From contig OX597842.1 in the NCBI GenBank assembly GCA_951406725.2, forward strand, positions 18,724,001 to 18,788,000: a stretch of 64,000 nucleotides of DNA. Reading direction: 5' to 3'. Below, piece after piece: positions 2,307-64,000 of the stretch (the first letter of the stretch is position 1; each line of letters opens with the position of its first letter). The translations under genes were made by a program, and so were the position numbers. Below the pieces are notes generated by a model. The model did no database searches. It was not told where the DNA came from and worked only from the letters and a program-made list of their open reading frames with translations. Source of the stretch: Octopus vulgaris (Eukaryota).

Positions 2307-2928
2307 TCATTTCTTTATTGCCCACAAGGAGCTAAACATACAGGGGACAGACAAGGACAGACAAGGACAGACAAGGACAGACAAACAGATTAAGTCGATT
2401 ATATCAACTCCAGTGCGTAACTGGTACTTATTTAATCGACCCCGAAAGGATGAAAGGCAAAGTCGACCTCGGCGGAATTTGAACTCAGAACGTAGCGGCA
2501 GACGAAATACCTATTTCTTTACTGCCCACATGGGGCTAAGCACAGAGGGGACAAAAAAGGACAGACAAAGGGATTAAGTCGATTATATCAACTCCAGTGC
2601 GTAACTGGTACTTATTTAATCGACCCCGAAAGGATGAAAGGCAAAGTCGACCTCGGCGGAATTTGAACTCAGAACGTAGCGGCAGACGAAATACCTATTT
2701 CTTTACTGCCCACAAGGGGCTAAGCACAGAGGGGACAAAAAAGGACAGACAAAGGGATTAAGTCGATTATATCGATCCCAGTGCGTAACTGGTATTTATT
2801 TAATCGACCCCGAAAGGATGAAAGGCAAAGTCGACCTCGGCGGAATCTGAACTCAGAACGTAGCGGCAGACGAAATACCGCTAAGCATTTCGTCCGGCGT
2901 ACTAACGTTTCTGCCAGCTCGCCGCCTT
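2307..2928 (-). mobile_element. SINE trimer (tRNA-like head plus Meta/MESC-like core), ~181-bp units
   Basis: Head aaggcggcgagctggcagaaacgttag once, then three body units containing gtcgactttgcctttcatcctttcggggtcgat. Confidence 0.8.
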
Positions 2929-5994: not shown

Positions 5995-6289
5995 TAGATA
6001 TGTTACAAAACTTGACAGAGATTGCAATTTAAATACAAAATATGATAATATATACAACACACAGATTATATAGTTTCGCAATAAAGCTAATATAATCCTT
6101 TCCACTACAGAAACACTATGAAATTTTTCTGGATGGGAGAGTTAGTTACATTGACCGCAGCACTTCAGTAATACGTATTTCATTGACCCCGAAAGAAGGA
6201 AGGGCAAAGTTGAACTCAATGAAATTTGAACCCATAACGTACAGACTAACGACATGGCGCAAAGCATTTTGTCCAGCGTGCTAATCATA

Positions 6290-8348
6290 CCTATTTCTTT
6301 ACTACCCCCAAGGGGCTACACACAGAGAGGACAAACAAGGACAGACAAAGGGATTAAGTCGATTATATCGACCCCAGTGCGTAATTGGTACTTATTTAAT
6401 CGACCCCGAAAGGATGAAAGGCAAAGTCGACCTCGGAGGAATTTGAACTCAAAACATAGCGGCAGACGAAATACCTATTTCTTTACTACGCCCAAGGGGC
6501 TACACACAAAGAGGACAAACAAGGACAGACAAAGGGATTAAGTCGATTATATCGACCCCAGTGCGTAATTGGTACTTATTTAATCGACCCCGAAAGGATG
6601 AAAGGCAAAGTCGACCTCGGCGGAATTTGAACTCAAAACATAGCGGCAGACGAAATACCTCTTTCTTTACTACCCCCAAGGGGCTACACACAGAGAGGAC
6701 CAACAAGGACAGACAAAGGGATTAAGTCGATTATATCGACCCCAGTGCGTAATTGGTACTTATTTAATCGACCCCGAAAGGATGAAAGGCAAAGTCGACC
6801 TCGGCGGAATTTGAACTCAAAACATAGCGGCAGACGAAATACCTATTTCTTTACTACCCACAAGGGGCTAAACACAGAGAGGACAAACAAGGACAAACAA
6901 AGGGATTAAGTCGATAATATCGACCCCAGTGCGTAACTGGTAGTTTTTTAATCGACCCCGAAAGGATGAAAGGCAAAGTCGACCTCGGCGGAATTTGAAC
7001 TCAGAACGTAGCGGCAGACGAAATACCTATTTCTTTACTACCCATAAGGGGCTAAACACAGAGAGGACCAACAAGGACAAACAAAGGGATTAAGTCGATT
7101 ATATCGATCCCAGTGCGTAACTGGTACTTATTTAATCGACCCCGAAAGGATAAAAGGCAAAGTCGACCCTGGCGGAATTTGAACTCAGAACATAGCGGCA
7201 GACGAAATACCTATTTCTTTACTACCCCCAAGGGGCTACACACAGAGAGGACCAACAAGGACAGACAAAGGGATTAAGTCGATTATATCGACCCCAGTGC
7301 GTAATTGGTACTTATTTAATCGACCCCGAAAGGATGAAAGGCAAAGTCGACCTCGGCGGAATTTGAACTCAAAACATAGCGGCAGACGAAATACCTATTT
7401 CTTTACTACCCACAAGGGGCTAAACACAGAGAGGACAAACAAGGACAAACAAAGGGATTAAGTCGATAATATCGACCCCAGTGCGTAACTGGTAGTTTTT
7501 TAATCGACCCCGAAAGGATGAAAGGCAAAGTCGACCTCGGCGGAATTTGAACTCAGAACGTAGCGGCAGACGAAATACCTATTTCTTTACTACCCATAAG
7601 GGGCTAAACACAGAGAGGACAAACAAGGACAAACAAAGGGATTAAGTCGATTATATCGATCCCAGTGCGTAACTGGTACTTATTTAATCGACCCCGAAAG
7701 GATAAAAGGCAAAGTCGACCCTGGCGGAATTTGAACTCAGAACATAGCGGCAGACGAAATACCTATTTCTTTACTACCCACAAGGGGCTAAACACAGAGA
7801 GGACAAACAAGGACAAACAAAGGGATTAAGTCGATAATATCGACCCCAGTGCGTAACTGGTAGTTTTTTAATCGACCCCGAAAGGATGAAAGGCAAAGTC
7901 GACCTCGGCGGAATTTGAACTCAAAACATAGCGGCAGACGAAATACCTATTTCTTTACTACCCATAAGGGGCTAAACACAGAGAGGACAAACAAGGACAA
8001 ACAAAGGGATTAAGTCGATTATATCGATCCCAGTGCGTAACTGGTACTTATTTAATCGACCCCGAAAGGATAAAAGGCAAAGTCGACCCTGGCGGAATTT
8101 GAACTCAGAACATAGCGGCAGACGAAATACCTCTTTCTTTACTACCCACAAGGGGCTAAACACAGAGGGGACAAACAAGGACAAACAAAGGGATTAAGTC
8201 GATTATATCGACCCCAGTGCGTAACTGGTATTTATTTAATCGACCCCGAAAGGATAAAAGGCAAAGTCGACCTCGGCGGAATTTGAACTCAGAACGTAGC
8301 CAAGAATTTCGCCCGGCGTGGTAACGTTTCTGCCAGCTCGCCGCCTTA
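6290..8348 (-). repeat. Tandem array of ~11 SINE body units (181 bp) with a single head at the right end
   Basis: Same unit as 2307-2928; diagnostic variants alternate along the array. Confidence 0.9.
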
Positions 8349-9322: not shown

Positions 9323-9389
<67 letters not shown>

Positions 9390-11990
9390 CATATATATAC
9401 ATATATACGACAGGCTTCTTTCAGTTTCTGTCTACCAAATCCACTCACAAGGCATTGGTCGGCCCGAGGCTATAGCAGAAGACACTTGCCCAAGATGCCA
9501 CGCAGTGGGACTGAACCCGGAACAATGTGGTTGGTTAGCAAGCTACTTACCACACAGCCACTCCTACACCTATATATATATATATATATACGACGGGCTT
9601 CTTTCAGTTTCTGTCAACCAAATCCACTCACAAGGCATTGGTCGGCCCAAGGCTATAGTAGAAGACACTTGCCCAAGATGCCACGCAGTGGGACTGAACC
9701 CGGAACCATGTGGCTGGTTAGCAAGCTACTTACCACACAGCCACTCCTACACCTATATATATATATATATATATACGACGGGCTTCTTTCAGTTTCTGCC
9801 AACCAAATCCACTCACAAGGCATTGGTCGGCCCGAGGCTATAGCAGAAGACACTTGCCCAAGATGCCACGCAGTGGGACTGAACCCGGAACCATGTGGTT
9901 GGTTAGCAAGCTACTTACCACACAACCACTCCTACACCTATATATATATATACATATATACGACAGGCTTCTTTCAGTTTCTGTCTACCAAATCCACTCA
10001 CAAGGCATTGGTCGGCCCGAGGCTATAGCAGAAGACACTTGCCCAAGATGCCACGCAGTGGGACTGAACCGGGAACCATGTGGTTGGTTAGCAAGCTACT
10101 TACCACACAACCACTCCTACGCCTATATATATATATACATATATACGACAGGCTTCTTTCAGTTTCTGTCTACCAAATCCACTCACAAGGCATTGGTCGG
10201 CCCGAGGCTATAGCAGAAGACACTTGCCCAAGATGCCACGCAGTGGGACTGAACCCGGAACCATGTGGTTGGTTAGCAAGCTACTTACCACACAACCACT
10301 CCTGCGCCTATATATATATATATATATACATATATACGACAGGCTTCTTTCAGTTTCTGTCTACCAAATCCACTCACAAGGCATTGGTCGGCCCGGGGCT
10401 ATAGCAGAAGACACTTGCCCAAGATGCCACGCAGTGGGACTGAACCCGGAACCATGTGGTTGGTTAGCAAGCTACTTACCACAGCCACTCCTACGCCTAT
10501 ATATATATATACATATATACGACAGGCTTCTTTCAGTTTCCGACTACCAAATCCACTCACAAGGCATTGGTCGGCCCGAGGCTATAGCAGAAGACACTTG
10601 CCCAAGATGCCACGCAGTGGGACTGAACCCGGAACCATGTGGTTGGTTAGCAAGCTACTTACCACACAGCCACTCCTACGCCTATATATATATATACATA
10701 TATACGACAGGCTTCTTTCAGTTTCCGTCTACCAAATCCACTCACAAGGCATTGGTCGGCCCGAGGCTATAGCAGAAGACACTTGCCCAAGATGCCACGC
10801 AGTGGGACTGAACCCGGACCCATGTGGTAGTTAACAAGCTACTTACCACACAGCCACTCCTACACCTATATATATATATACATATATACGACAGGCTTCT
10901 TTCAGTTTCCGCCTACCAAATCCACTCACAAGGCATTGGTCGGCCCGAGGCTATAGCAGAAGACACTTGCCCAAGATGCCACGCAGTGGGACTGAACCCG
11001 GAACCATGTGGTTGGTTAGCAAGCTACTTACCACACAACCACTCCTACGCCTATATATATATATACATATATACGACAGGCTTCTTTCAGTTTCTGTCTA
11101 CCAAATCCACTCACAAGGCATTGGTCGGCCCGAGGCTATAGCAGAAGACACTTGCCCAAGATGCCACGCAGTGGGACTGAACCCGGAACCATGTGGTTGG
11201 TTAGCAAGCTACTTACCACACAACCACTCCTGCGCCTATATATATATATATATATACATATATACGACAGGCTTCTTTCAGTTTCTGTCTACCAAATCCA
11301 CTCACAAGGCATTGGTCGGCCCGGGGCTATAGCAGAAGACACTTGCCCAAGATGCCACGCAGTGGGACTGAACCCGGAACCATGTGGTTGGTTAGCAAGC
11401 TACTTACACACAGCCACTCCTACGCCTATATATATATATACATATATACGACAGGCTTCTTTCAGTTTCCGACTACCAAATCCACTCACAAGGCATTGGT
11501 CGGCCCGAGGCTATAGCAGAAGACACTTGCCCAAGATGCCACGCAGTGGGACTGAACCCGGAACCATGTGGTTGGTTAGCAAGCTACTTACCACACAGCC
11601 ACTCCTACGCCTATATATATATATACATATATACGACAGGCTTCTTTCAGTTTCCGTCTACCAAATCCACTCACAAGGCATTGGTCGGCCCGAGGCTATA
11701 GCAGAAGACACTTGCCCAAGATGCCACGCAGTGGACTGAACCCGGAACCATGTGGTTGGTTAGCAAGCTACTTACCACACAACCACTCCTGCGCCTATAT
11801 ATATATATATATATATACATATATACGACAGGCTTCTTTCAGTTTCCGTCTACCAAATCCACTCACAAGGCATTGGTCGGCCCGAGGCTATAGCAGAAGA
11901 CACTTGCCCATGGTGCCACGCAGTGGGACTGAACCCGGAACCATGTGGTTGGTAAACAAGCTACTTACCACACAGCCACTCCTGTGCCTA
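9097..11990 (-). repeat. Long SINE whose 5' half (~185 bp plus (TA)n) is tandemly amplified 14 times
   Basis: Units begin acgac(a/g)ggcttctttcag from ~9406 to ~11825; single 3' half with (GAGTAAAA)n tail at 9097-9330. Confidence 0.9.
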
Positions 11991-12200
11991 TTAGGTTGAA
12001 AATTCATTTTAATAGGAAAAGTCGAAAGCTTTCCTATCAAAAAGGGTTTTTCATTTTACTATTTATGTGATTCGAAATCATTTCACTTCATGTTCTGTTA
12101 AAAATTTGTAAAAATGTTTATGATGTCGATAGCATTCAGTAGTAGAAGTATTTTTCTTTTATTTACCAATTTCTGTTGTTCTTTCATTTTCCTCCGCCAG

Positions 12201-36582: not shown

Positions 36583-36643
<61 letters not shown>

Positions 36644-36764
36644 ACAATCAAGGAACGGCCATAATAGGCCATTCACCCACTAGAAATAACAGCCAAAAGC
36701 TTTAACCGCAAAATAACATTAATTCCGTAAACCAGGAGAAAATTGAAAAAACATTTACCCTGTA

Positions 36765-36871
36765 ATTTCTTAGACGATGCACCGTTTCATCTACCGTTTA
36801 ATGGTAAACTAACCTGATTAAATTAAATCAAGCCAATCCACCATAGGCCCTTAGACTCATCAGTAAGAAAT
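36765..36871 (-). ncRNA. Type I hammerhead ribozyme (inverted monomer)
   Basis: Reverse complement of the motif at 37270-37376. Confidence 0.88.
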
Positions 36872-37269
36872 AGCCAAGTCGGAACAGATATTTTTCACGA
36901 GGCATTCCTCTTGCTACCTCGGCAATATCTGACCTAAAATTTTCAAATCGTCGCACTCGCGCCAAATTTATCGGCAGCAAATAAATATAAGCCACTGATT
37001 CCATTACGGAACTAACCAGAACATTCATAATTAATCAATATAGGGTGGCAAAAAAATTTTGTAGAATTCTTTTGCCACCAGCGGCCTAGTGGGAAAAAAT
37101 TAAATAGTCATAAACCATTTTTAAGTTAGTTCCGTAATGGAATCAGTGGCTTATATTTATTTGCTGCCGATAAATTTGGCGCGAGTGCGACGATTTGAAA
37201 ATTTTAGGTCAGATATTGCCGAGGTAGCAAGAGGAATGCCTCGTGAAAAATATCTGTTCCGACTTGGCT

Positions 37270-37376
37270 ATTTCTTACTGATGAGTCTAAGGGCCTATGG
37301 TGGATTGGCTTGATTTAATTTAATCAGGTTAGTTTACCATTAAACGGTAGATGAAACGGTGCATCGTCTAAGAAAT
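37270..37376 (+). ncRNA. Type I hammerhead ribozyme, copy 1 (predicted cleavage after GUC at 37368)
   Basis: Stem I atttctta/taagaaat; core CTGATGA (37278-37284); stem II gtcta...tagat with a 19-bp inner helix; GAAA; stem III ACGG-tgca-TCGT; GTC triplet. Confidence 0.9.
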
Positions 37377-37759
37377 TACAGGGTAAATGTTTTTCAATTT
37401 TCTCCTGGTTTACGGAATTAATGTTATTTTGCGGTTAAAGCTTTTGGCTGTTATTTCTAGTGGGTGAATGGCCTATTATGGCCGTTCCTTGATTGTTGAT
37501 GTTGAACTTAAAAATGGTTTATGACTATTTAATTTTTTCCCACTAGGCCGCTGGTGGCAAAAGAATTCTACAAAATTTTTTGCCACCCTATATTGATTAA
37601 TTATGAATGTTCTGGTTAGTTCCGTAATGGAATCAGTGGCTTATATTTATTTGCTGCCGATAAATTTGGCGCGAGTGCGACGATTTGAAAATTTTAGGTC
37701 AGATATTGCCGAGGTAGCAAGAGGAATGCCTCGTGAAAAATATCTGTTCCGACTTGGCT

Positions 37760-37866
37760 ATTTCTTACTGATGAGTCTAAGGGCCTATGGTGGATTGGCT
37801 TGATTTAATTTAATCAGGTTAGTTTACCATTAAACGGTAGATGAAACGGTGCATCGTCTAAGAAAT
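37760..37866 (+). ncRNA. Type I hammerhead ribozyme, copy 2
   Basis: Same motif as copy 1. Confidence 0.9.
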
Positions 37867-38249
37867 TACAGGGTAAATGTTTTTCAATTTTCTCCTGGTT
37901 TACGGAATTAATGTTATTTTGCGGTTAAAGCTTTTGGCTGTTATTTCTAGTGGGTGAATGGCCTTTATGGCCGTTCCTTGATTGTTGATGTTGAACTTAA
38001 AAATGGTTTATGACTATTTAATTTTTTCCCACTAGGCCGCTGGTGGCAAAAGAATTCTACAAAATTTTTTTGCCACCCTATATTGATTAATTATGAATGT
38101 TCTGGTTAGTTCCGTAATGGAATCAGTGGCTTATATTTATTTGCTGCCGATAAATTTGGCGCGAGTGCGACGATTTGAAAATTTTAGGTCAGATATTGCC
38201 GAGGTAGCAAGAGGAATGCCTCGTGAAAAATATCTGTTCCGACTTGGCT

Positions 38250-38356
38250 ATTTCTTACTGATGAGTCTAAGGGCCTATGGTGGATTGGCTTGATTTAATT
38301 TAATCAGGTTAGTTTACCATTAAACGGTAGATGAAACGGTGCATCGTCTAAGAAAT
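38250..38356 (+). ncRNA. Type I hammerhead ribozyme, copy 3
   Basis: Same motif as copy 1. Confidence 0.9.
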
Positions 38357-38740
38357 TACAGGGTAAATGTTTTTCAATTTTCTCCTGGTTTACGGAATTA
38401 ATGTTATTTTGCGGTTAAAGCTTTTGGCTGTTATTTCTAGTGGGTGAATGGCCTTTTATGGCCGTTCCTTGATTGTTGATGTTGAACTTAAAAATGGTTT
38501 ATGACTATTTAATTTTTTCCCACTAGGCCGCTGGTGGCAAAAGAATTCTACAAAATTTTTTTGCCACCCTATATTGATTAATTATGAATGTTCTGGTTAG
38601 TTCCGTAATGGAATCAGTGGCTTATATTTATTTGCTGCCGATAAATTTGGCGCGAGTGCGACGATTTGAAAATTTTAGGTCAGATATTGCCGAGGTAGCA
38701 AGAGGAATGCCTCGTGAAAAATATCTGTTCCGACTTGGCT

Positions 38741-38847
38741 ATTTCTTACTGATGAGTCTAAGGGCCTATGGTGGATTGGCTTGATTTAATTTAATCAGGT
38801 TAGTTTACCATTAAACGGTAGATGAAACGGTGCATCGTCTAAGAAAT
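38741..38847 (+). ncRNA. Type I hammerhead ribozyme, copy 4
   Basis: Same motif as copy 1. Confidence 0.9.
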
Positions 38848-55696: not shown

Positions 55697-57650
55697 CTAT
55701 GCGCTTTCTCTTGCTCCTGCTACTGACGTCGTTCTGTTGATTGTCTCCCTTTGTTTCCAGTATATCTTTGCTAACTTCATAGCTTCCCGAGGCTTTTGTT
55801 TTCTGGCTCTCTCATCATCAGAGTGAAACAATGTGCTGATTGCTTTCGATTTTATGACTTTGAATTCCTTAACCGTTGACGAAAATGGTAGACGGAATAT
55901 AAAATTTTTACTGTACAGATTGACTGAACTGAAACTTGTGGTAATGCCCACATTCGAGCGAATTCTATTGTATAGGCCTTTCCCTAGAGTCAACCAGATT
56001 CATTAGCAAAGTCGTAAAGTAAGAATGGCCACTGAAGGCGGCGAGCTGGCAGAAACGTTAGCACGCCGGGCGAAACGCGTAGCCGTATTTCGTCTGCCGT
56101 TACGCTCTGAGTTCAAATTCCGCCGAGGTCGACTTTGCCTATCATCCTTTCGGGGTTGATAAATTAAGTACCAGTTACGCACTGGGGTCGATATAATCGA
56201 CTTAATCCTTTGTCTGCCCTTGTCTGTCCCCTCTGTGTTTAGCCTCTTGTGGGTAGTAAAGAAAAAGGTATTTCGTCTGTCTTTACGTTCTGAGTTCAAA
56301 TTCCGCCGAGGTCGACTTTGCCTTTCATCCTTTCGGGGTCGATTAAATAAGTACCAGCTACGCACTGGGGTCGATATAATCGACTTAATCCCTTTGTCTG
56401 CCCTTGATGTCCCCTCTGTGTGTAGCCCCTTGTGGGTAGTAAAGAAAAAGGTATTTCGTCTGTCTTTACGTTCTGAGTTCAAATTCCGCCGAGGTCGACT
56501 TTGCCTATCATCCTTTCGGGGTCGATTAAATAAGTACCAGTTACGCACTGGGGTCGATGTAATCGACTTAATCCGTCTGTCTGTCCTTATTTGTCCTCTC
56601 TGTGTTTGGCCCCTTGTGGGTAGTAAAGAAATAGGTATTTCGTCTGCCGTTACGTTCTGAGTTCAAATTCCGCCGAGGTCGACTTTGCCTTTCATCCTTT
56701 CGGCGTCGATTAAATAAGTACCAGTTACGCACTGGGGTCGATATAATCGATTAATCCCTTTGTCTGCCCTTGTCTGTCCCCTCTGTGTGTAGCCCCTTGT
56801 GGGTAGTAAAGAAAAATGTATTTCGTCTGTCTTTACGTTCTGAGTTCAAATTCCGCCGAGGTCGACTTTGCCTATCATCCTGTCGGGGTCGATTAAATAA
56901 GTACCAGTTACGCACTGGGGTCGATGTAATCGACTTAATCCGTCTGTCTGTCCTTATTTGTCCTCTCTGTGTTTGGCCCCTTGTGGGTAGTAAAGAAATA
57001 GGTATTTCGTCTGCCGTTACGTTCTGAGTTCAAATTCCGCCGAAGTCGACTTTGCCTTTCATCCTTTCGGGGTCGATTAAATAAGTACCAGTTACGCACT
57101 GGGGTCCGATATAATCGACTGAATCACTTTGTCTGCCCTTGTTTGTCCTCTCTGTGTGTAGCCCCTTGTGGGCAGTAAAGAAATAAGAATGGCCACTGAA
57201 GTCTGGGTATAAAATCATACTGGAAGCGGCATACTTTAAACCTTCCAATTAATCGGCTACAGTCTATGGATTTCAGCCAGTTCTCTGGTTGGATCTTTGT
57301 GCTTACGGCATTGCCATTATGTTTAGGAGTATGATCGTACCTTTTCCCAAACTGTCGAACTCCTTTTTGTTTTAGGATTATTAGAATAGGATCCTGAGAT
57401 TTCGCTGGATTGAATTTCAGGTGTGACAACGTGGCCATCTTCTACAGCCAGCTCATTGTCAGCCGCGTCCCTTCAGTTGATTGAGGCATAACTGTTACGT
57501 CGTCAAGGAACGCTCTGCATACTCGAATTTTTGCTTGCGTTTTCATTAGTTTTCTGGATCTCTCCTCTGCTTCCTTCTCACTTCTAGAAGTAGGTTCATG
57601 ACCGCCACAAATAGCTCCACGGAAATTGTACACACTACCATGATGCTTTT
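55697..57650 (-). mobile_element. Degenerate Hero/R2-group (RLE) non-LTR retrotransposon RT fragment, split by a SINE array
   Basis: IMVVCTISVELFVAVMNLLL...RAFLDDVTVM...LKFNPAKS...FGKRYD...GRFKVCRFQYDFIPRLQWPFL...SFSSVNLYS..RLPFSSTVKEFK. Confidence 0.7.
56038..57183 (+). mobile_element. SINE hexamer (head plus ~6 bodies) with 18-bp TSD
   Basis: TSD taagaatggccactgaag at 56020-56037 and 57184-57201. Confidence 0.88.
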
Positions 57651-60600
57651 TCTCCTCTCCTTTCCCTCCGCCTTTCTCTCCCCTTTACACCGTCCGGAGA
57701 GAAAGGCGGAGGGAAAGGAGAGGAGAAAAAGCATCATGGTAGTGTGTACAATTTCCGTGGAACTATTTGTGGCGGTCATGAATCATATCACGAAAGTGAG
57801 AGAGAAAGAGAGAGAGAGGGGGACGGTGAGAAGGGGAGAGAAAGGCGGAGGGAAAGGAGAGGAGAAAAAGCATCATGGTAGTGTGTACAATTTCCGTGGA
57901 GCTATTTGTGGCGGTCATGAATCATATCACGAAAGTGAGAGAGAAAGAGAGAGAGAGGGGGACGGTGAGAAGGGGAGAGAAAGGCGGAGGGAAAGGAAAG
58001 GAGAAAAAGCATCATGGTAGTGTGGTACAATTTCCGTGGAGCTATTTGTGGCGGTCATGAATCATATCACGAAAGTGAGAGAGAAAGAGAGGGAGAGGTG
58101 GGGACGGTGAGAAGGGGAGAGAAAGGCGGAGGGAACGGATAGGAGAAAAAGCATCATGGTTGTGTGTACAATTTCCGTGGAGCTATTTGTGGCGGTCATG
58201 AATCATATCACGAAAGTGAGAGAGAAAGACAGAGAGAGGGGGGGACGGTGAGAAGGGGAGAGAAAGGCGGAGGGAAAGGAGAGGAGAAAAAGCATCATGG
58301 TAGTGTGTACAATTTCCGTGGAGAGAGGAAAGGAAGGGAGAAAAAGCATCATGGTAGTGTGTACAATTTCCGTGGAGCTATTTGTGGCGGTCATGAATCA
58401 TATCACGAAAGTGAGAGAGAAAGAGAGGGAGAGGTGGGGACGGTGAGAAGGGGAGAGAAAGGCGGAGGGAACGGATAGGAGAAAAAGCATCATGGTTGTG
58501 TGTACAATTTCCGTGGAGCTATTTGTGGCGGTCATGAATCATATCACGAAAGTGAGAGAGAAAGACAGAGAGAGGGGGACGGTGAGAAGGGGAGAGAAAG
58601 GCGGAGGGAAAGGAGAGGAGAAAAAGCATCATGGTAGTGTGTACAATTTCCGTGGAGAGAGGGGGGACGGTGAGAAGGGGAGAGAAAGGCGGAGGGAAAG
58701 GAGATCAGAAAAAGCATCATGGTAGTGTGTACAATTTCCGTGGAGCTATTTGTGGCGGTCATGAACCTACTTCTAGAAGTGAGAAGGAAGCAGAGGAGAG
58801 ATCCAGAAAACTAATGAAAACGCAAGCAAAAATTCGAGTATGCAGAGCGTTCCTTGACGACGTAACAGTTATGCCTCAATCAACTGAAGGGACGCGGCTG
58901 ACAATGAGCTGGCTGTAGAAGAAGGCCACGTTGTCACACCTGAAAGAGAAAGAGAGGGGGGACGGTGAGAAAGGGAGAGAAAGGCGGAGGGAAAGGAGAG
59001 GAGAAAAAGCATCATGGTAGTGTGTACAATTTCCGTGGAGCTATTTGTGGCGGTCATGAATCATATCACGAAAGTGAGAGAGAAAGAGAGGGCGAGGTGG
59101 GGATTGTGAGAAGGGGAGAGAAAGGCGGAGGGAAAGGAGAGGAGAAAAAGCATCATGGTAGTGTGTACAATTTCCGTGGAACTATTTGTGGCGGTCATGA
59201 ATCATATCACGAAAGTGAGAGAGAAAGAGAGAGAGGGGGACGGTGAGAAGGGGAGAAAGGCGGAGGGAAGGAGAGGAGAAAAAGCATCATGGTAGTGTGT
59301 ACAATTCCGTGGAGCTATTTGTGGCGGTCATGAATCATATCACGAAAGTGAGAGAGAAAGAGAGAGAGAGGGGGACGGTGAGAAGGGAGAGAGGCGAGGA
59401 GGAAAGGAAAGGAGAAAAAGCATCATGGTAGTGTGTACAATTTCCGTGGAGCTATTTGTGCGGTCATGAATCATATCACGAAAGTGAGAGAGAAAGAGAG
59501 GGAGAGGTGGGGACGGTGAGAAGGGGAGAGAAGGCGGAGGGAACGGATAGGAGAAAAAGCATCATGGTTGTGTGTACAATTTCCGTGGAGCTATTTGTGG
59601 CGGTCATGAATCATATCACGAAAGTGAGAGAGAAAGACTTCGTGATATGATTCATGACCGCCACAAATAGCTCCACGAAAATTGTACACACTACCATGAT
59701 GCTTTTTCTCCTCCCTCCTTTCCCTCCGCCTTTCTCTCCCCTTCTCACCGTCCCCCTCTCTCTCTCTTTCTCTCTCACTTTCGTGATATGATTCATGACC
59801 ACCACAAATAGCTCCACGGAAATTGTACACACTACCATGATGCTTTTTCTCCTCTCCTTTCCCTCCGCCTTTCTCTCCCCTTCTCACCGTCCCCCCTCTC
59901 TACCTCTCTTTCTCTCTCACTTTCGTGATATGATTCATGACCGCCACAAATAGCTCCACGGAAATTGTACACACTACCATGATGCTTTTTCTCCTCTCCT
60001 TTCCCTCCGCCTTTCTCTCCCCTTCTCACCGTCCCTCTCCCTCCCTCTCTTTCTCTCTCACTTTCGTGATATGATTCATGACCGCCACAAATACCTCCAC
60101 GGAAATTGTACACACTACCATGATGATTTTCTCCTCTCCTTTCCCTCCGCCTTTCTCTCCCCTTCTCACCGTCCCCCTCTCTCTCTCTCTTTCTCTCTCA
60201 CTTTCGTGATATGATTCATGACCGCCACAAATAGCTCCACGGAAATTGTACACACTACCATGATGCTTTTTCTCCTCTCCTTTCCCTCCGCCTTTCTCTC
60301 CCTTTCTCACCGTCCCCCTCTCTCTTTCTCTCTCACTTTCGTGATATGATTCATGACCGCCACAAATAGCTCCACGGAAATTGTACACACTACCATGATG
60401 CTTTTCTCCTCTCCTTTCCCTCCGCCTTTCTCTCCCCTTCTCACCGTCCCCTCTCTCTCTCTCTTTCTCTCTCACTTTCGTGATATGATTCATGACCGCC
60501 ACAACTAGCTCCACGGAAATTGTACACACTACCTTGATGCTTTTTCTCCTCTCCTTTCCCTCCGCCTTTCTCTCCCCTTCTCACCGTCCCCCGTTTCTCT

Positions 60601-63600
60601 CTCTTTCTCTCTCACTTTTGTGATATGATTCATGACCGCCACAAATAGCTCCACGGAAATTGTACACACTACCATGATGCTTTTTCTCCTCTCCTTTTCC
60701 CTCCGCCTTTCTCTCCCCTTCTCACCGTCCCCCTCTCTCTGTCTTTCTCTCTCACTTTCGTGATATGATTCATGACAGACACAAATAGCTCCACGGAAAT
60801 TGTACACACAACCATGATGCTTTTTCTCCTATCCGTTCCCTCCGCCTTTCTCTCCCCTTCTCACCGTCCCCAACTCTCCCTCTCTTTCTCTCTCACTTTC
60901 GTGATATGATTCATGACCGCCACAAATAGCTCCACGGAAATTGTACACACTACCATGATGCTTTTTCTCCTCTCCTTTCCCTCCGCCTTTCTCTCCCCTT
61001 CTCACCGTCCCCCCTCTCTCTGTCTTTCTCTCTCACTTTCGTGATATGATTCATGACCGCCACAAATAGCTCCACGGAAATTGTACACACAACCATGATG
61101 CTTTTTCTCCTATCCGTTCCCTCCGCCTTTCTCTCCCTTCTCACCGTCCCCAACTCTCCCTCTCTTTCTCTCTCACTTTCGTGATATGATTCATGACCGC
61201 CACAAATAGCTCCACGGAAATTGTACACACTACCATGATGCTTTTTCTCCTCTCCTTTCCCTCCGCCTTTCTCTCCCCTTCTCACCGTCCCCCCTCTCTC
61301 TGTCTTTCTCTCTCACTTTCGTGATATGATTCATGACCGCCACAAATAGCTCCACGGAAATTGTACACACAACCATGATGCTTTTTCTCCTATCCGTTCC
61401 CTCCGCCTTTCTCTCCCCTTCTCACCGTCCCCACCTCTCCCTCTCTTTCTCTCTCACTTTCGTGATATGATTCATGACCGCCACAAATAGCTCCACGGAA
61501 ATTGTACACACTACCATGATGCTTTTTCTCCTTTCCTTTCCCTCCGCCTTTCTCTCCCCTTCTCACCGTCCCCCTCTCTCTCTCTTTCTCTCTCACTTTC
61601 GTGATATGATTCATGACCGCCACAAATAACTCCACGGAAATTGTACACACTACCATGATGCTTTTTCTCCTCTCCTTTCCCTCCGCCTTTCTCTCCCCTT
61701 CTCACAATCCCCACCTCGCCCTCTCTTTCTCTCTCACTTTCGTGATATGATTCATGACCGCCACAAATAGCTCCACGGAAATTGTACACACTACCATGAT
61801 GCTTTTTCTCCTCTCCTTTCCCTCCGCCTTTTTCTCTCCTTCTCACCGTCCCCCCTCTCTCTCTCTTTCTCTCTCACTTTCGTGATATGATTCATGACAG
61901 CCACAAATAGCTCCACGGAAATTGTACACACTACCATGATGCTTTTTCTCCTCTCCTTTCCCTCCGCTTATCTCTCCCCTTCTCACCGTCCCCCCTCTCT
62001 CTCTCTTTCTCTCTCACTTTCGTGATATGATTCATGACCGCCACAAATAGCTCCACGGAAATTGTACACACTACCATGATGCTTTTTCTCCTCTCCTTTC
62101 CCTCCGCCTTTCTCTCCCCTTCTCACCGTCCCCCTCTCTCTCTCTCTTTCTCTCTCACTTTCGTGATATGATTCATGACCGCCACAAATAGCTCCACGGT
62201 AATTGTACACACTACCATGATGCTTTTTCTCCTCTCCTTTACCTCCGCCGTTCTCTCCCCTTTTCACCGTCCCCCCTCTCTCTCTCTTTCTCTCTCACTT
62301 TCGTGATATGATTCATGACCGCCACAAATAGCTCCACGGAAATTGTACACACTACCATGATGCTTTTTCTTCTCTCCTTTCCCTCCGCCTTTCTCTCCCC
62401 TTTTCACCGTCCCCCTCTCTCACTCTTTCTCTCTCACTTTCGTGCTATGATTCATGACCGCCACAAATAGCTCCACGGAAATTGTACACACTACCATGAT
62501 GCTTTTTCTCCTCTCCTTTCCCTCCGCATTTCTCTCCCCTTCTCACCGTCCCCCTCTCTCTCTCTTTCTCTCTCACTTTCGTGATATGATTCATGACCGC
62601 CACAAATAGCTCCACGGAAATTGTTCACACTACCATGATGCTTTTTCTCCTCTCCTTTCCCTCCGCCTTTCTCTCCCCTTCTCACAGTCCCTCTCTCTCT
62701 CTCTCTTTCTCTCTCACTTTCGTGATATGATTCATGACCGCCACAAATAGCTCCACGGAAATTGTACACACTACCATTATGGTTTTTCTCCTCTCCTTTC
62801 CCTCCGCCTTTCTCTCCCCTTCTCACCATCCCCTCTCTCTCTCTCTTTCTCTCTCACATTCGTGATATGATTCATGACCGCCACAAATAGCTCCACGGAA
62901 ATTGTACACGCTACCATGATGCTTTTTCTCCTCTCCTTTCCCTCTGCCTTTCTCTCCCCTTCTCACCATCCCCCCTCTCCCTGTCTTTCTCTCTCACTTT
63001 CGTGATATGATTCATGACCGCCACAAATAGTTCCACGGAAATTGTACACACAACCATGATGCTTTTTCTCCTCTCCTTTCCCTCCGACTTCCTCTCCCCT
63101 TCTCACCGTCGCTCCTCTCTCTCTCTTTCTCCCTTACTTTCGTGATATGATTCATGACCGCCACAAATAGTTCCACGGAAATTGTACACACTACCATGAT
63201 GCTTTTTCTCCTCTCCTTTCCCTCCGCCTTTCTCTCCCCTTCTCACCGTCCCCACCTCTCCCTCTCTTTCTCTCTCACTTTCGTGATATGATTCATGACC
63301 TCCACAAATAGCTCCACGGAAATTGTACACACTACCATGATGCTTTTTCTCCTCTCCTTTCCCTCCGCCTTTCTCTCCCCTTCTCACCGCCCCCTCTCTC
63401 TCTCTTTCTCTCTCACTTTCGTGATATGATTTATGACCGCCACAAATAGCTCCACGGAAATTGTACACACTAGCATGATGCTTTTTCTCCTCTCCTTTCC
63501 CTCCGCCTTTCTCTCCCCTTCTCACCGTCCCCCCTCTCTCTCTTTCTCTCTCACTTTCGTGATATGATTCATGACCGCCACAAATAGTTCCACGGAAATT

Positions 63601-64000
63601 GTACACACTACCATGATGCTTTTTCTCCTCTCCTTTCCCTCCGCCTTTCTCTCCCCTTCTCACCGTCCCCACTTCTCCCTCTCTTTCTCTCTCACTTTCG
63701 TGATGTGATTCATGACCGCCACAAATAGCTCCACGGAAATTGTACACACTACCATGATGCTTTTTCTCCTCTCCTTTCCCTCCGCCTTTCTCTCCCCTTC
63801 TCACCGTCCCCACCTCTCCCTCTCTTTCTCTTTCACTTTCGTGATATGATTCATGACCGCCACAAATAGCTCCACGGAAATTGTACACACTACCATGATG
63901 CTTTTTCTCCTCTCCTTTCCCTCCGCCTTTCTCTCCCCTTCACACCGTCCACTCTCTCTCTCTCTTTCTCTCTCACTTTCGTGATATGATTCATGACCGC
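57594..64000. repeat. ~140-bp satellite (LINE RT fragment plus GA-rich tract), >40 units, orientation switches at ~57690 and ~59638; runs off the window
   Basis: Unit gcatcatggtagtgtgtacaatttccgtggagctatttgtggcggtcatgaatcatatcacgaaagtgagagag...ggagaaaaa. Confidence 0.93.

What the first reader, a model, noticed from the sequence alone, without database searches (positions are those of the whole stretch)
37285..37352. Unusually long G-U-rich stem II shows selection on the + strand RNA fold
Within stem II, atggtggattggcttgatt pairs over all 19 positions with aatcaggttagtttaccat, using six G-U wobbles. On the opposite strand these would be A-C mismatches, so this is an RNA hairpin rather than a DNA palindrome. 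A 7x7 internal loop (agggcct/taaacgg) lies 5 bp from the core, where a tertiary contact with an extended stem I (cttg/cagg) could form. Stem III (ACGG-TGCA-TCGT) is near-palindromic, which would permit dimeric hammerheads between adjacent units.
Basis: partly seen in the sequence, partly recalled or inferred. Interest (0 to 1): 0.72.

Follow-up and report, generated by a model that had tools for sequence, protein, structure and literature searches.

The report
Long-armed hammerhead in Penelope-type retrozyme
This hairpin is the unusually long side arm of a predicted self-cutting RNA (a hammerhead ribozyme) carried by a young 490-base jumping repeat, and its many G-U pairs were likely kept by selection on the RNA fold, so it is a new variant of a known kind of mobile element.

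Summary
The 19-bp stem (13 Watson-Crick, 6 G-U) is real, far beyond chance and strand-specific. It is the distal part of stem II of a type I hammerhead in a 490/491-bp non-coding unit, present 8 times in tandem plus an inverted arm, inserted in (TA)n. The genome holds 426 near-identical copies and at least 121 older relatives. Stems I-III covary. In the distal stem, typical subfamily sequences carry G-U 22 times against A-C 2, while one-off changes give 6 against 8. The stem appears to derive from an A-U-only (UUUAA)n hairpin, and its length is free (8-26 bp). Stem III is a 12-nt near-palindrome; two units are predicted to fold as a swapped dimer. In 17 of 18 two-armed insertions one arm ends about 132 nt after the cut site and the other about 236 nt after it. 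That layout resembles Penelope-like elements, so this is most likely a non-autonomous Penelope-type (non-LTR) retrozyme. Cleavage, expression, the loop-loop contact and the mobilising partner are untested. A-to-I editing as the source of the wobbles is a weaker rival.

The parts
37125..41039 (+). Tandem arm: 8 units of 490/491 bp, 5'-truncated at unit position 247, 3' end at unit position 236 (end B) running into (TA)n
36640..37127 (-). Inverted arm, head-to-head with the tandem arm, 3' end at unit position 132 (end A) running into (TA)n; carries one complete hammerhead (core match at 36856-36863)
36600..36641 (.). (TA)n target microsatellite, left flank
41037..41068 (.). (TA)n target microsatellite, right flank
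37266..37268 (+). Conserved GGC 5' of stem I, predicted partner of the internal-loop GCC
   Evidence: inferred
37271..37277 (+). Hammerhead stem I, 5' strand (pairs with 37369-37375)
37278..37284 (+). Catalytic core CUGAUGA
   Evidence: sequence
37285..37289 (+). Proximal stem II, 5' strand (5 bp with 37348-37352, opening with G-U instead of G-C)
37290..37296 (+). 5' side of the 7x7 internal loop, with conserved GCC at 37293-37295 (3' side 37341-37347)
37297..37340 (+). Distal stem II: 19 bp with 6 G-U pairs and a 6-nt apex; remnant TTTAA pentamers at the apex
37353..37356 (+). Core GAAA
   Evidence: sequence
37356..37367 (+). Stem III with UGCA loop, 12-nt self-complementary, predicted dimerisation site
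37368..37368 (+). C17 of the GUC triplet; predicted cleavage 3' of this base
   Evidence: inferred from the hammerhead consensus
37369..37858 (+). One predicted monomer, cut site to cut site (490 nt), non-coding (longest ATG ORF 66 aa)

Best explanation
The stem is the distal extension of stem II in a type I hammerhead motif inside a 490-bp repeat that is likely a non-autonomous Penelope-type (non-LTR) retrozyme, and its G-U pairs are likely wobble states kept by selection on the element's RNA fold. Proposed cycle: read-through transcripts of an array would self-cleave after GUC, most likely as swapped dimers through the palindromic stem III, releasing 490-nt monomers. These would circularise, be copied more than unit length by a Penelope-like reverse transcriptase supplied in trans, and be inserted at (TA)n as two head-to-head arms. 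The long stem likely serves as a scaffold that closes the internal loop and holds its GCC where it can pair with a GGC beside stem I, in place of the usual loop 1-loop 2 contact. It likely grew by slippage of a UUUAA pentamer into an A-U hairpin, in which A-to-G changes are tolerated (G-U) and U-to-C changes (A-C) mostly are not, and some G-U pairs then became G-C. Shown: the pairing, the covariation, the copy numbers and the insertion layout. Inferred: cleavage, dimer, loop contact, circles, the partner enzyme and the direction of change.
For: Rfam Hammerhead_1 match over 37272-37374 at E 0.0038, 22 bits. On 24 relatives, stems I, II-proximal and III are 95.8, 92.7 and 99.0% paired, with double changes in 5 of 6, 3 of 4 and 2 of 4 pairs. 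Distal stem with strand-neutral scoring: in the 10 subfamilies with 2 or more loci, WC 132, G-U 22, A-C 2, other 10; one-locus changes G-U 6, A-C 8, other 10 (Fisher p 0.002). On 13 equal-length stems, 87.0% of cells are paired against 82.3 +/- 1.5 shuffled (1/500) and at most 49% when slid; 18 double-change cells (0/500). In a two-unit RNA the dimer fold is -190.8 against -173.5 for two monomers, with swapped pairs at P 0.77-0.98. Layout: 17 of 18 two-armed insertions have one end A and one end B; 39 of 43 defined ends abut (TA)n; 10-15 nt flank duplications are visible where the flank is not pure TA. Older subfamilies end at similar distances, 126-134 and 225-240 nt, in 14 of 16 arms listed. 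Ten of 19 array-private variants are in every covered unit of their array, 9 of them on both arms, as expected for one template per insertion. Only 2 collapsed-stem members of the superfamily were found, both single copies.
Against: No cleavage, expression or circular RNA was shown; the RNA labels of runs holding the unit are guesses and no RNA run was laid on it. The Rfam score is below the gathering threshold (22 < 34; none at threshold). The monomer's best fold pairs the core with the cleavage triplet (-33.2 against -28.9 for the active fold; stem III P <= 0.01). The G-U counts are not independent: 16 of the 22 come from three related subfamilies, and the number of pairs with a double change (7 of 19) does not beat shuffles (59/500). 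One A-C mismatch persists in three subfamilies. The GGC/GCC core is nearly invariant, so it carries little covariation; the adjacent pair is broken in 8 of 24 rows including this family. Doubly compensated cases are single loci (L066, L224), and three loop changes are uncompensated (L205, L206, one L207 copy). No autonomous element sharing sequence with the unit was found. Variants fixed across an array could also come from unsampled parent arrays or gene conversion.
Confidence: 0.8

Rival explanations
1. The G-U pairs are fossils of A-to-I editing: ADAR edits the A-U hairpin in the element's RNA, reverse transcription writes G into the genome, and wobbles accumulate on the RNA strand by biased mutation rather than, or as well as, by selection.
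For: Relatives have A where this family has G. Variants shared within an array are A>G in 4 of 19 cases against 3 of 62 single-unit changes (p 0.049). In a squid, one class of A-to-I editing is directed at repeats (PMC9068888, abstract and passages); that the host is a cephalopod is my recall, not tested.
Against: No A>G change in the distal stem among 108 young units from 27 insertions; the four array-level A>G changes lie elsewhere in the unit. The p value is marginal, one of several comparisons. Editing alone does not explain G-U to G-C repair or the covariation in the core stems. Selection predicts the same A>G excess in an A-U stem.
Confidence: 0.15
2. The G-U pairs are selected to keep the RNA hairpin while breaking the perfect DNA inverted repeat, or the long perfect dsRNA, so lowering deletion, slippage or silencing of master copies.
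For: A-U-only subfamilies show pentamer length changes and two collapsed copies. G-U fraction falls with copy divergence (rho -0.74, p 0.058, n = 7). G:U hairpin transgenes avoid self-silencing in plants (PMC9263138, abstract only).
Against: The whole insertion is a near-perfect inverted repeat of hundreds of bases, which would dwarf a 19-bp effect. A-U-only subfamilies also amplified (28 of 114 sampled copies in one). The trend is not significant.
Confidence: 0.15
3. A satellite whose hammerhead is an inactive relic; the stem is a decayed DNA palindrome or a by-product of G+U-rich composition, and the arrays grow by unequal crossover.
For: Composition alone gives a 38 kcal/mol strand asymmetry. 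8 of 9 predicted Xenopus retrozyme dimers did not cleave in vitro (10.64898/2026.07.22.740005, part 3).
Against: Dispersed young insertions with fixed ends on many contigs; covariation in all hammerhead stems; decay gives G-U and A-C about equally in private changes but not in subfamily stems.
Confidence: 0.05

Closest known systems
Metazoan non-LTR retrozymes (PMC7229834, passages and section 14; 10.64898/2026.07.22.740005, parts 1-3 of 5)
   Same: Tandem non-coding repeats, one type I hammerhead per unit, low GC, no LTR structure; a mussel family there also lacks most of the archetypal loop 1-loop 2 nucleotides.
   Different: Unit 490 bp (the 2020 paper gives repeats of 150-450 bp; the 2026 preprint 51-972 bp). 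Stem II is a 5-bp stem, a 7x7 loop and a 19-bp stem, against 4-5 bp in most type I motifs. Two inverted arms with fixed, unequal ends were not described for retrozymes in the passages I read.
Penelope-like elements, EN+ clades such as Neptune and Naiad (PMC8557442, passages; PMC4209133, parts 1-2 of 4)
   Same: 5'-truncated partial tandems with an adjacent inverted copy, an extension on one end only, microsatellite targets including (TA)n, and a hammerhead with palindromic loop 3 expected to work as a dimer.
   Different: No ORF; the one-sided extension is about 104 nt rather than 30-40 bp; the hammerhead is not minimal (4-bp stem III, long stem II); no sequence similarity to the one autonomous family examined.
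Pseudoknotted hammerheads (PMC3088659, passages)
   Same: Watson-Crick pairing between the stem I and stem II regions replaces the non-canonical loop contact; that paper predicts this for about 40% of its representatives.
   Different: Here the predicted pairing is only 3-6 bp and comes from an internal loop closed by a long hairpin; it is untested.
Rfam RF00163 Hammerhead_1
   Same: Core and three stems align over all 45 model positions.
   Different: A large insertion in loop II takes the score below threshold (22 against 34 bits).

Membership tests
Type I hammerhead ribozyme | Core CUGANGA, GAAA and NUH triplet | tested here: met
   CUGAUGA 37278-84, GAAA 37353-56, GUC 37366-68
Type I hammerhead ribozyme | Three stems, stem I open, supported by covariation | tested here: met
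Type I hammerhead ribozyme | Rfam RF00163 gathering score | tested here: not met
   22 bits against 34, E 0.0038, with the long loop II modelled as an insertion; a library cut-off rather than a biological feature
Type I hammerhead ribozyme | Stem I-stem II tertiary contact | tested here: inconclusive
   GGC/GCC complementarity 87.5% over 5 pairs, little covariation
Type I hammerhead ribozyme | Self-cleavage | not testable with these tools
   needs an in vitro assay
Non-LTR retrozyme | [quoted passage not shown] | tested here: met
   8 of 8 units in the window
Non-LTR retrozyme | Non-coding, low GC, dispersed | tested here: met
   longest ATG ORF 66 aa; 181 of 490 G+C; 426 pattern matches
Non-LTR retrozyme | Expressed as linear and circular monomer RNA | not tested
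   10 runs guessed to be RNA hold 48-68% of the unit's words, but none was laid on it and contigs cannot show circles
Penelope-like element, non-autonomous | 5'-truncated tandem plus adjacent inverted copy, with an extension at one end only | tested here: met
   18 of 27 insertions two-armed, 17 of 18 with ends A+B; extension about 104 nt, longer than described
Penelope-like element, non-autonomous | Microsatellite target and flank duplication | tested here: met
   39 of 43 defined ends at (TA)n; 10-15 nt duplications in four two-armed insertions
Penelope-like element, non-autonomous | Sequence homology to the pLTR of an autonomous element | tested here: inconclusive
   no similarity in 30 loci of one abundant GIY-YIG family; other families not examined
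Penelope-like element, autonomous | RT plus GIY-YIG ORF | tested here: not met
   no ORF in the unit

The most novel reading that the evidence does not exclude
The stem records RNA editing written back into the genome: ADAR edits the A-U hairpin of a circulating retrozyme RNA, the Penelope-type reverse transcriptase fixes the edits as G, and selection on the ribozyme filters them. The subfamily ladder from an all-A-U stem to a six-wobble stem would then be a fossil record of editing-driven evolution of a new hammerhead architecture, one that uses an internal-loop pairing in place of loop 2.
Probability: 0.15. Interest if true: 0.75.

Novelty: new variant of a known kind. Interest (0 to 1): 0.42.

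Why it matters
Hammerhead retrozymes and their link to Penelope-like elements are known, but the 2026 preprint rests that link on co-occurrence and pLTR homology. This family shows the Penelope integration footprint itself (inverted arms, one-sided extension, TA targets) in hundreds of young copies, a good system for the unresolved Penelope insertion mechanism. The ribozyme has a stem II far longer than the 4-8 bp in the papers read, which pushes it under the Rfam threshold, so similar motifs are probably being missed. The subfamily ladder is a natural record of A-U, G-U and G-C states within one helix, and it makes the editing-fossil idea testable.

Tried and rejected
Young copies as a covariation source: near invariant; 4 distinct changes in the stem among 108 units, none compensatory. 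RNAalifold on the MAFFT alignment missed the distal stem because subfamilies of different length were misaligned; equal-length rows were used instead (13 rows, hand-picked), leaving out the longer and shorter subfamilies. A short-stem version of the same hammerhead as autonomous partner: 0 matches; 5 matches with a looser pattern, 2 of them collapsed members of the superfamily and 3 other minimal motifs. An abundant GIY-YIG element beside one insertion shares the (TA)n target but no sequence; its Pfam match is below cut-off (21.5 against 22.6 bits) and the RT-side fragment matched nothing. A microRNA reading of the hairpin was rejected (mir-577, E 7.4, 13.7 against 100 bits). Shortening the distal stem in silico did not change monomer stem I, II-proximal or III probabilities, so secondary-structure prediction gives no role for its length. 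A search for subfamilies whose loop 3 starts with another base gave 17 matches and no amplified relative of this family; TGCA was fixed in the main pattern, so its invariance is by construction. The extended stem I was inconclusive. The direction of substitutions was not polarised on a tree; only the G-U against divergence trend is available. Earlier findings of the scan: nothing. Literature searches for a published description found none of this family or of a stem II this long; subscription papers, Repbase and paper supplements were not seen and may hold it.

Full report
Observation. The two arms (37297-37315, 37322-37340) pair at all 19 positions with six G-U pairs. The segment folds with z -5.96 on the + strand and -1.35 on the - strand, and 0 of 1000 shuffles of the unit reach 19 bp.

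Context. The stem lies in stem II of a type I hammerhead motif: stem I 37271-77 / 37369-75, core CUGAUGA, a 5-bp proximal stem II, a 7x7 internal loop, the 19-bp distal stem, GAAA, a 4-bp stem III with a UGCA loop, and GUC with the predicted cut after 37368. Rfam finds nothing at gathering threshold but aligns Hammerhead_1 at E 0.0038, 22 of 34 bits. The motif sits in a 490/491-bp unit repeated 8 times (37125-41039, 99% match), with an inverted arm at 36640-37127, between two (TA)n runs. The unit is non-coding. The genome has 2.8 Gb in 227 contigs; that it is a cephalopod is my recall from size and repeats, not tested.

The family. An exact pattern finds 426 copies, control 0. 72 full units examined are 94.8-100% identical to the window's, median 98.4%. 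The unit is held by public runs under four organism labels, and contigs from four runs laid at 80% show relatives with A at several G positions. Of 27 insertions examined, 18 have two head-to-head arms, and 17 of these have one arm ending about 132 nt after the cut site and the other about 236 nt after it. 39 of 43 defined ends abut (TA)n, and 10-15 nt flank duplications show where the flank is informative. Truncated tandems, an adjacent inverted copy, a one-sided tail and microsatellite targets are the features listed for Penelope-like elements (PMC8557442, passages), though the tail there is 30-40 bp. Ten of 19 array-private variants occur in every covered unit of their array, nine of them on both arms. 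That fits repeated copying of one template, but could also reflect unsampled parent arrays or conversion.

Test of selection. Young copies are uninformative (4 distinct changes in the stem among 108 units). A looser pattern gave 121 matches with 37-64 nt loops, mostly older relatives, and a longer subfamily appeared. From the loci fetched, 114 hammerheads fell into 22 clusters. On 24 representatives, stems I, II-proximal and III covary strongly. For the distal stem I used a hairpin scorer that treats G-U and A-C alike. The commonest stems of the 10 clusters with two or more loci hold G-U 22 times and A-C twice; changes seen at one locus only give G-U 6, A-C 8 and other 10 (p 0.002). This is the contrast expected if master elements are filtered on the + strand RNA fold and dead copies are not. 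It is not fully independent: 16 of the 22 come from three related clusters. On 13 equal-length stems, 87% of cells pair (shuffles 82.3%, 1/500; slid registers at most 49%). Double-change cells beat all 500 shuffles, but the count of pairs with a double change (7 of 19) does not (59/500). Single columns run through A-U, G-U and G-C, or U-A, U-G and C-G; one A-C persists in three clusters.

Origin of the stem. The most diverged clusters have A-U-only stems built of TTTAA pentamers, and lengths differ largely in pentamer steps, from 8 to 26 bp among multi-locus clusters. A tree built without the distal stem runs from those clusters to this family, whose sister is the 26-bp cluster. G-U fraction falls with copy divergence (rho -0.74, p 0.058, n = 7). 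Growth by slippage followed by A-to-G changes is therefore likely but not shown, as changes were not polarised on the tree. Only two collapsed-stem members were found, both single copies, a weak hint that some distal stem is needed to spread.

Tertiary contact. GCC in the internal loop and GGC 5' of stem I are conserved at nearly fixed spacing and are complementary over 3-6 bp (87.5% over five pairs). Flanking pairs change together in two single loci (L066, L224). However, the core barely varies, the next pair is broken in 8 of 24 rows including this family, and three loop changes are uncompensated. I put the contact at about even odds. Base-paired stem I-II contacts are a known hammerhead device (PMC3088659, passages).

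Dimer. As a monomer, stem III hardly forms (P <= 0.01) and the core is predicted to pair with the cleavage triplet; the 12-nt stem III self-duplex is -17.5 kcal/mol against -0.2 for the hairpin. In a two-unit RNA the swapped form is 17 kcal/mol better than two monomers and dominates the ensemble. 108 of 114 relatives keep full 12-nt self-complementarity, with the loop fixed by my pattern. This matches the dimer model for palindromic loop 3 in animal hammerheads (PMC4209133, parts 1-2).

Partner. A young, very abundant element with a GIY-YIG-like domain (Pfam E 0.00028, below cut-off; 150 of 17,043 candidates scored, nearly all 98% identical) also ends in (TA)n, but shares no sequence with the unit. 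Calling it a Neptune-like Penelope element rests on recalled motifs. It is a candidate mobiliser only.

Rivals. Editing fossils: A>G is 4 of 19 array-level variants against 3 of 62 single-unit ones (p 0.049), but none falls in the stem, and selection predicts the same bias. Wobbles as protection against palindrome instability or silencing have a plant transgene precedent (PMC9263138, abstract), but the insertion is itself a long inverted repeat. An inert satellite is unlikely, though 8 of 9 predicted Xenopus retrozyme dimers did not cleave in vitro.

Verdict. It works like, and on tested features is, a non-LTR retrozyme with a Penelope-type insertion footprint (PMC7229834; 10.64898/2026.07.22.740005). 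What differs is a stem II far longer than the 4-5 bp usual and 6-8 bp 'long' forms (PMC13725137, passages), a probable internal-loop pairing, and a 104-nt one-sided tail. Searches found no description of this family, within the limits of the library; supplements were not read. Cleavage and expression remain untested. New variant of a known kind, interest 0.42.

Noticed in passing
L054:2-1350 (G000:C1, about 147.17 Mb) and L133-L162: Young, very abundant element with a GIY-YIG-like domain and open frames up to about 1200 aa, ending in (TA)n about 130 nt after a minimal hammerhead-like motif with a non-standard core; candidate autonomous Penelope-like element.
   Followed up: partly
window 2365-2879, 6287-8300, 9387-11991, 49586-49953, 54901-55458, 56085-57183: Several tandem arrays of 183-185-bp units; the consensus units shown for five of them look related. 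My scan of the window found no other hammerhead with a 4-bp stem I.
   Followed up: partly
window 57696-64000: 140/141-bp repeat array, purine-rich up to 59637 and pyrimidine-rich after 59639, apparently in inverted orientation with an abrupt flip of GC skew.
   Followed up: no
L221-L223 (G000:C27, about 10.046 Mb): Separate tandem repeat of about 440 bp with hammerhead-like core boxes, a long loop II and a palindromic stem III region; no similarity to the 490-bp unit.
   Followed up: no
L212, L219, L220: Another diverged group with core boxes about 60 nt apart and a shared GTGCC near the core; possibly an older long-stem hammerhead family.
   Followed up: no
unit positions 126-132 and 230-236 (window 37494-37500 and 41033-41039): Both fixed ends follow a TTGATT motif and finish in AT, which may be the priming or nicking signal at (TA)n.
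   Followed up: no
L111, L112, L114: Three dispersed minimal type I hammerhead-like motifs with short stem II and a TGCA loop, unlike this family in their flanks.
   Followed up: no
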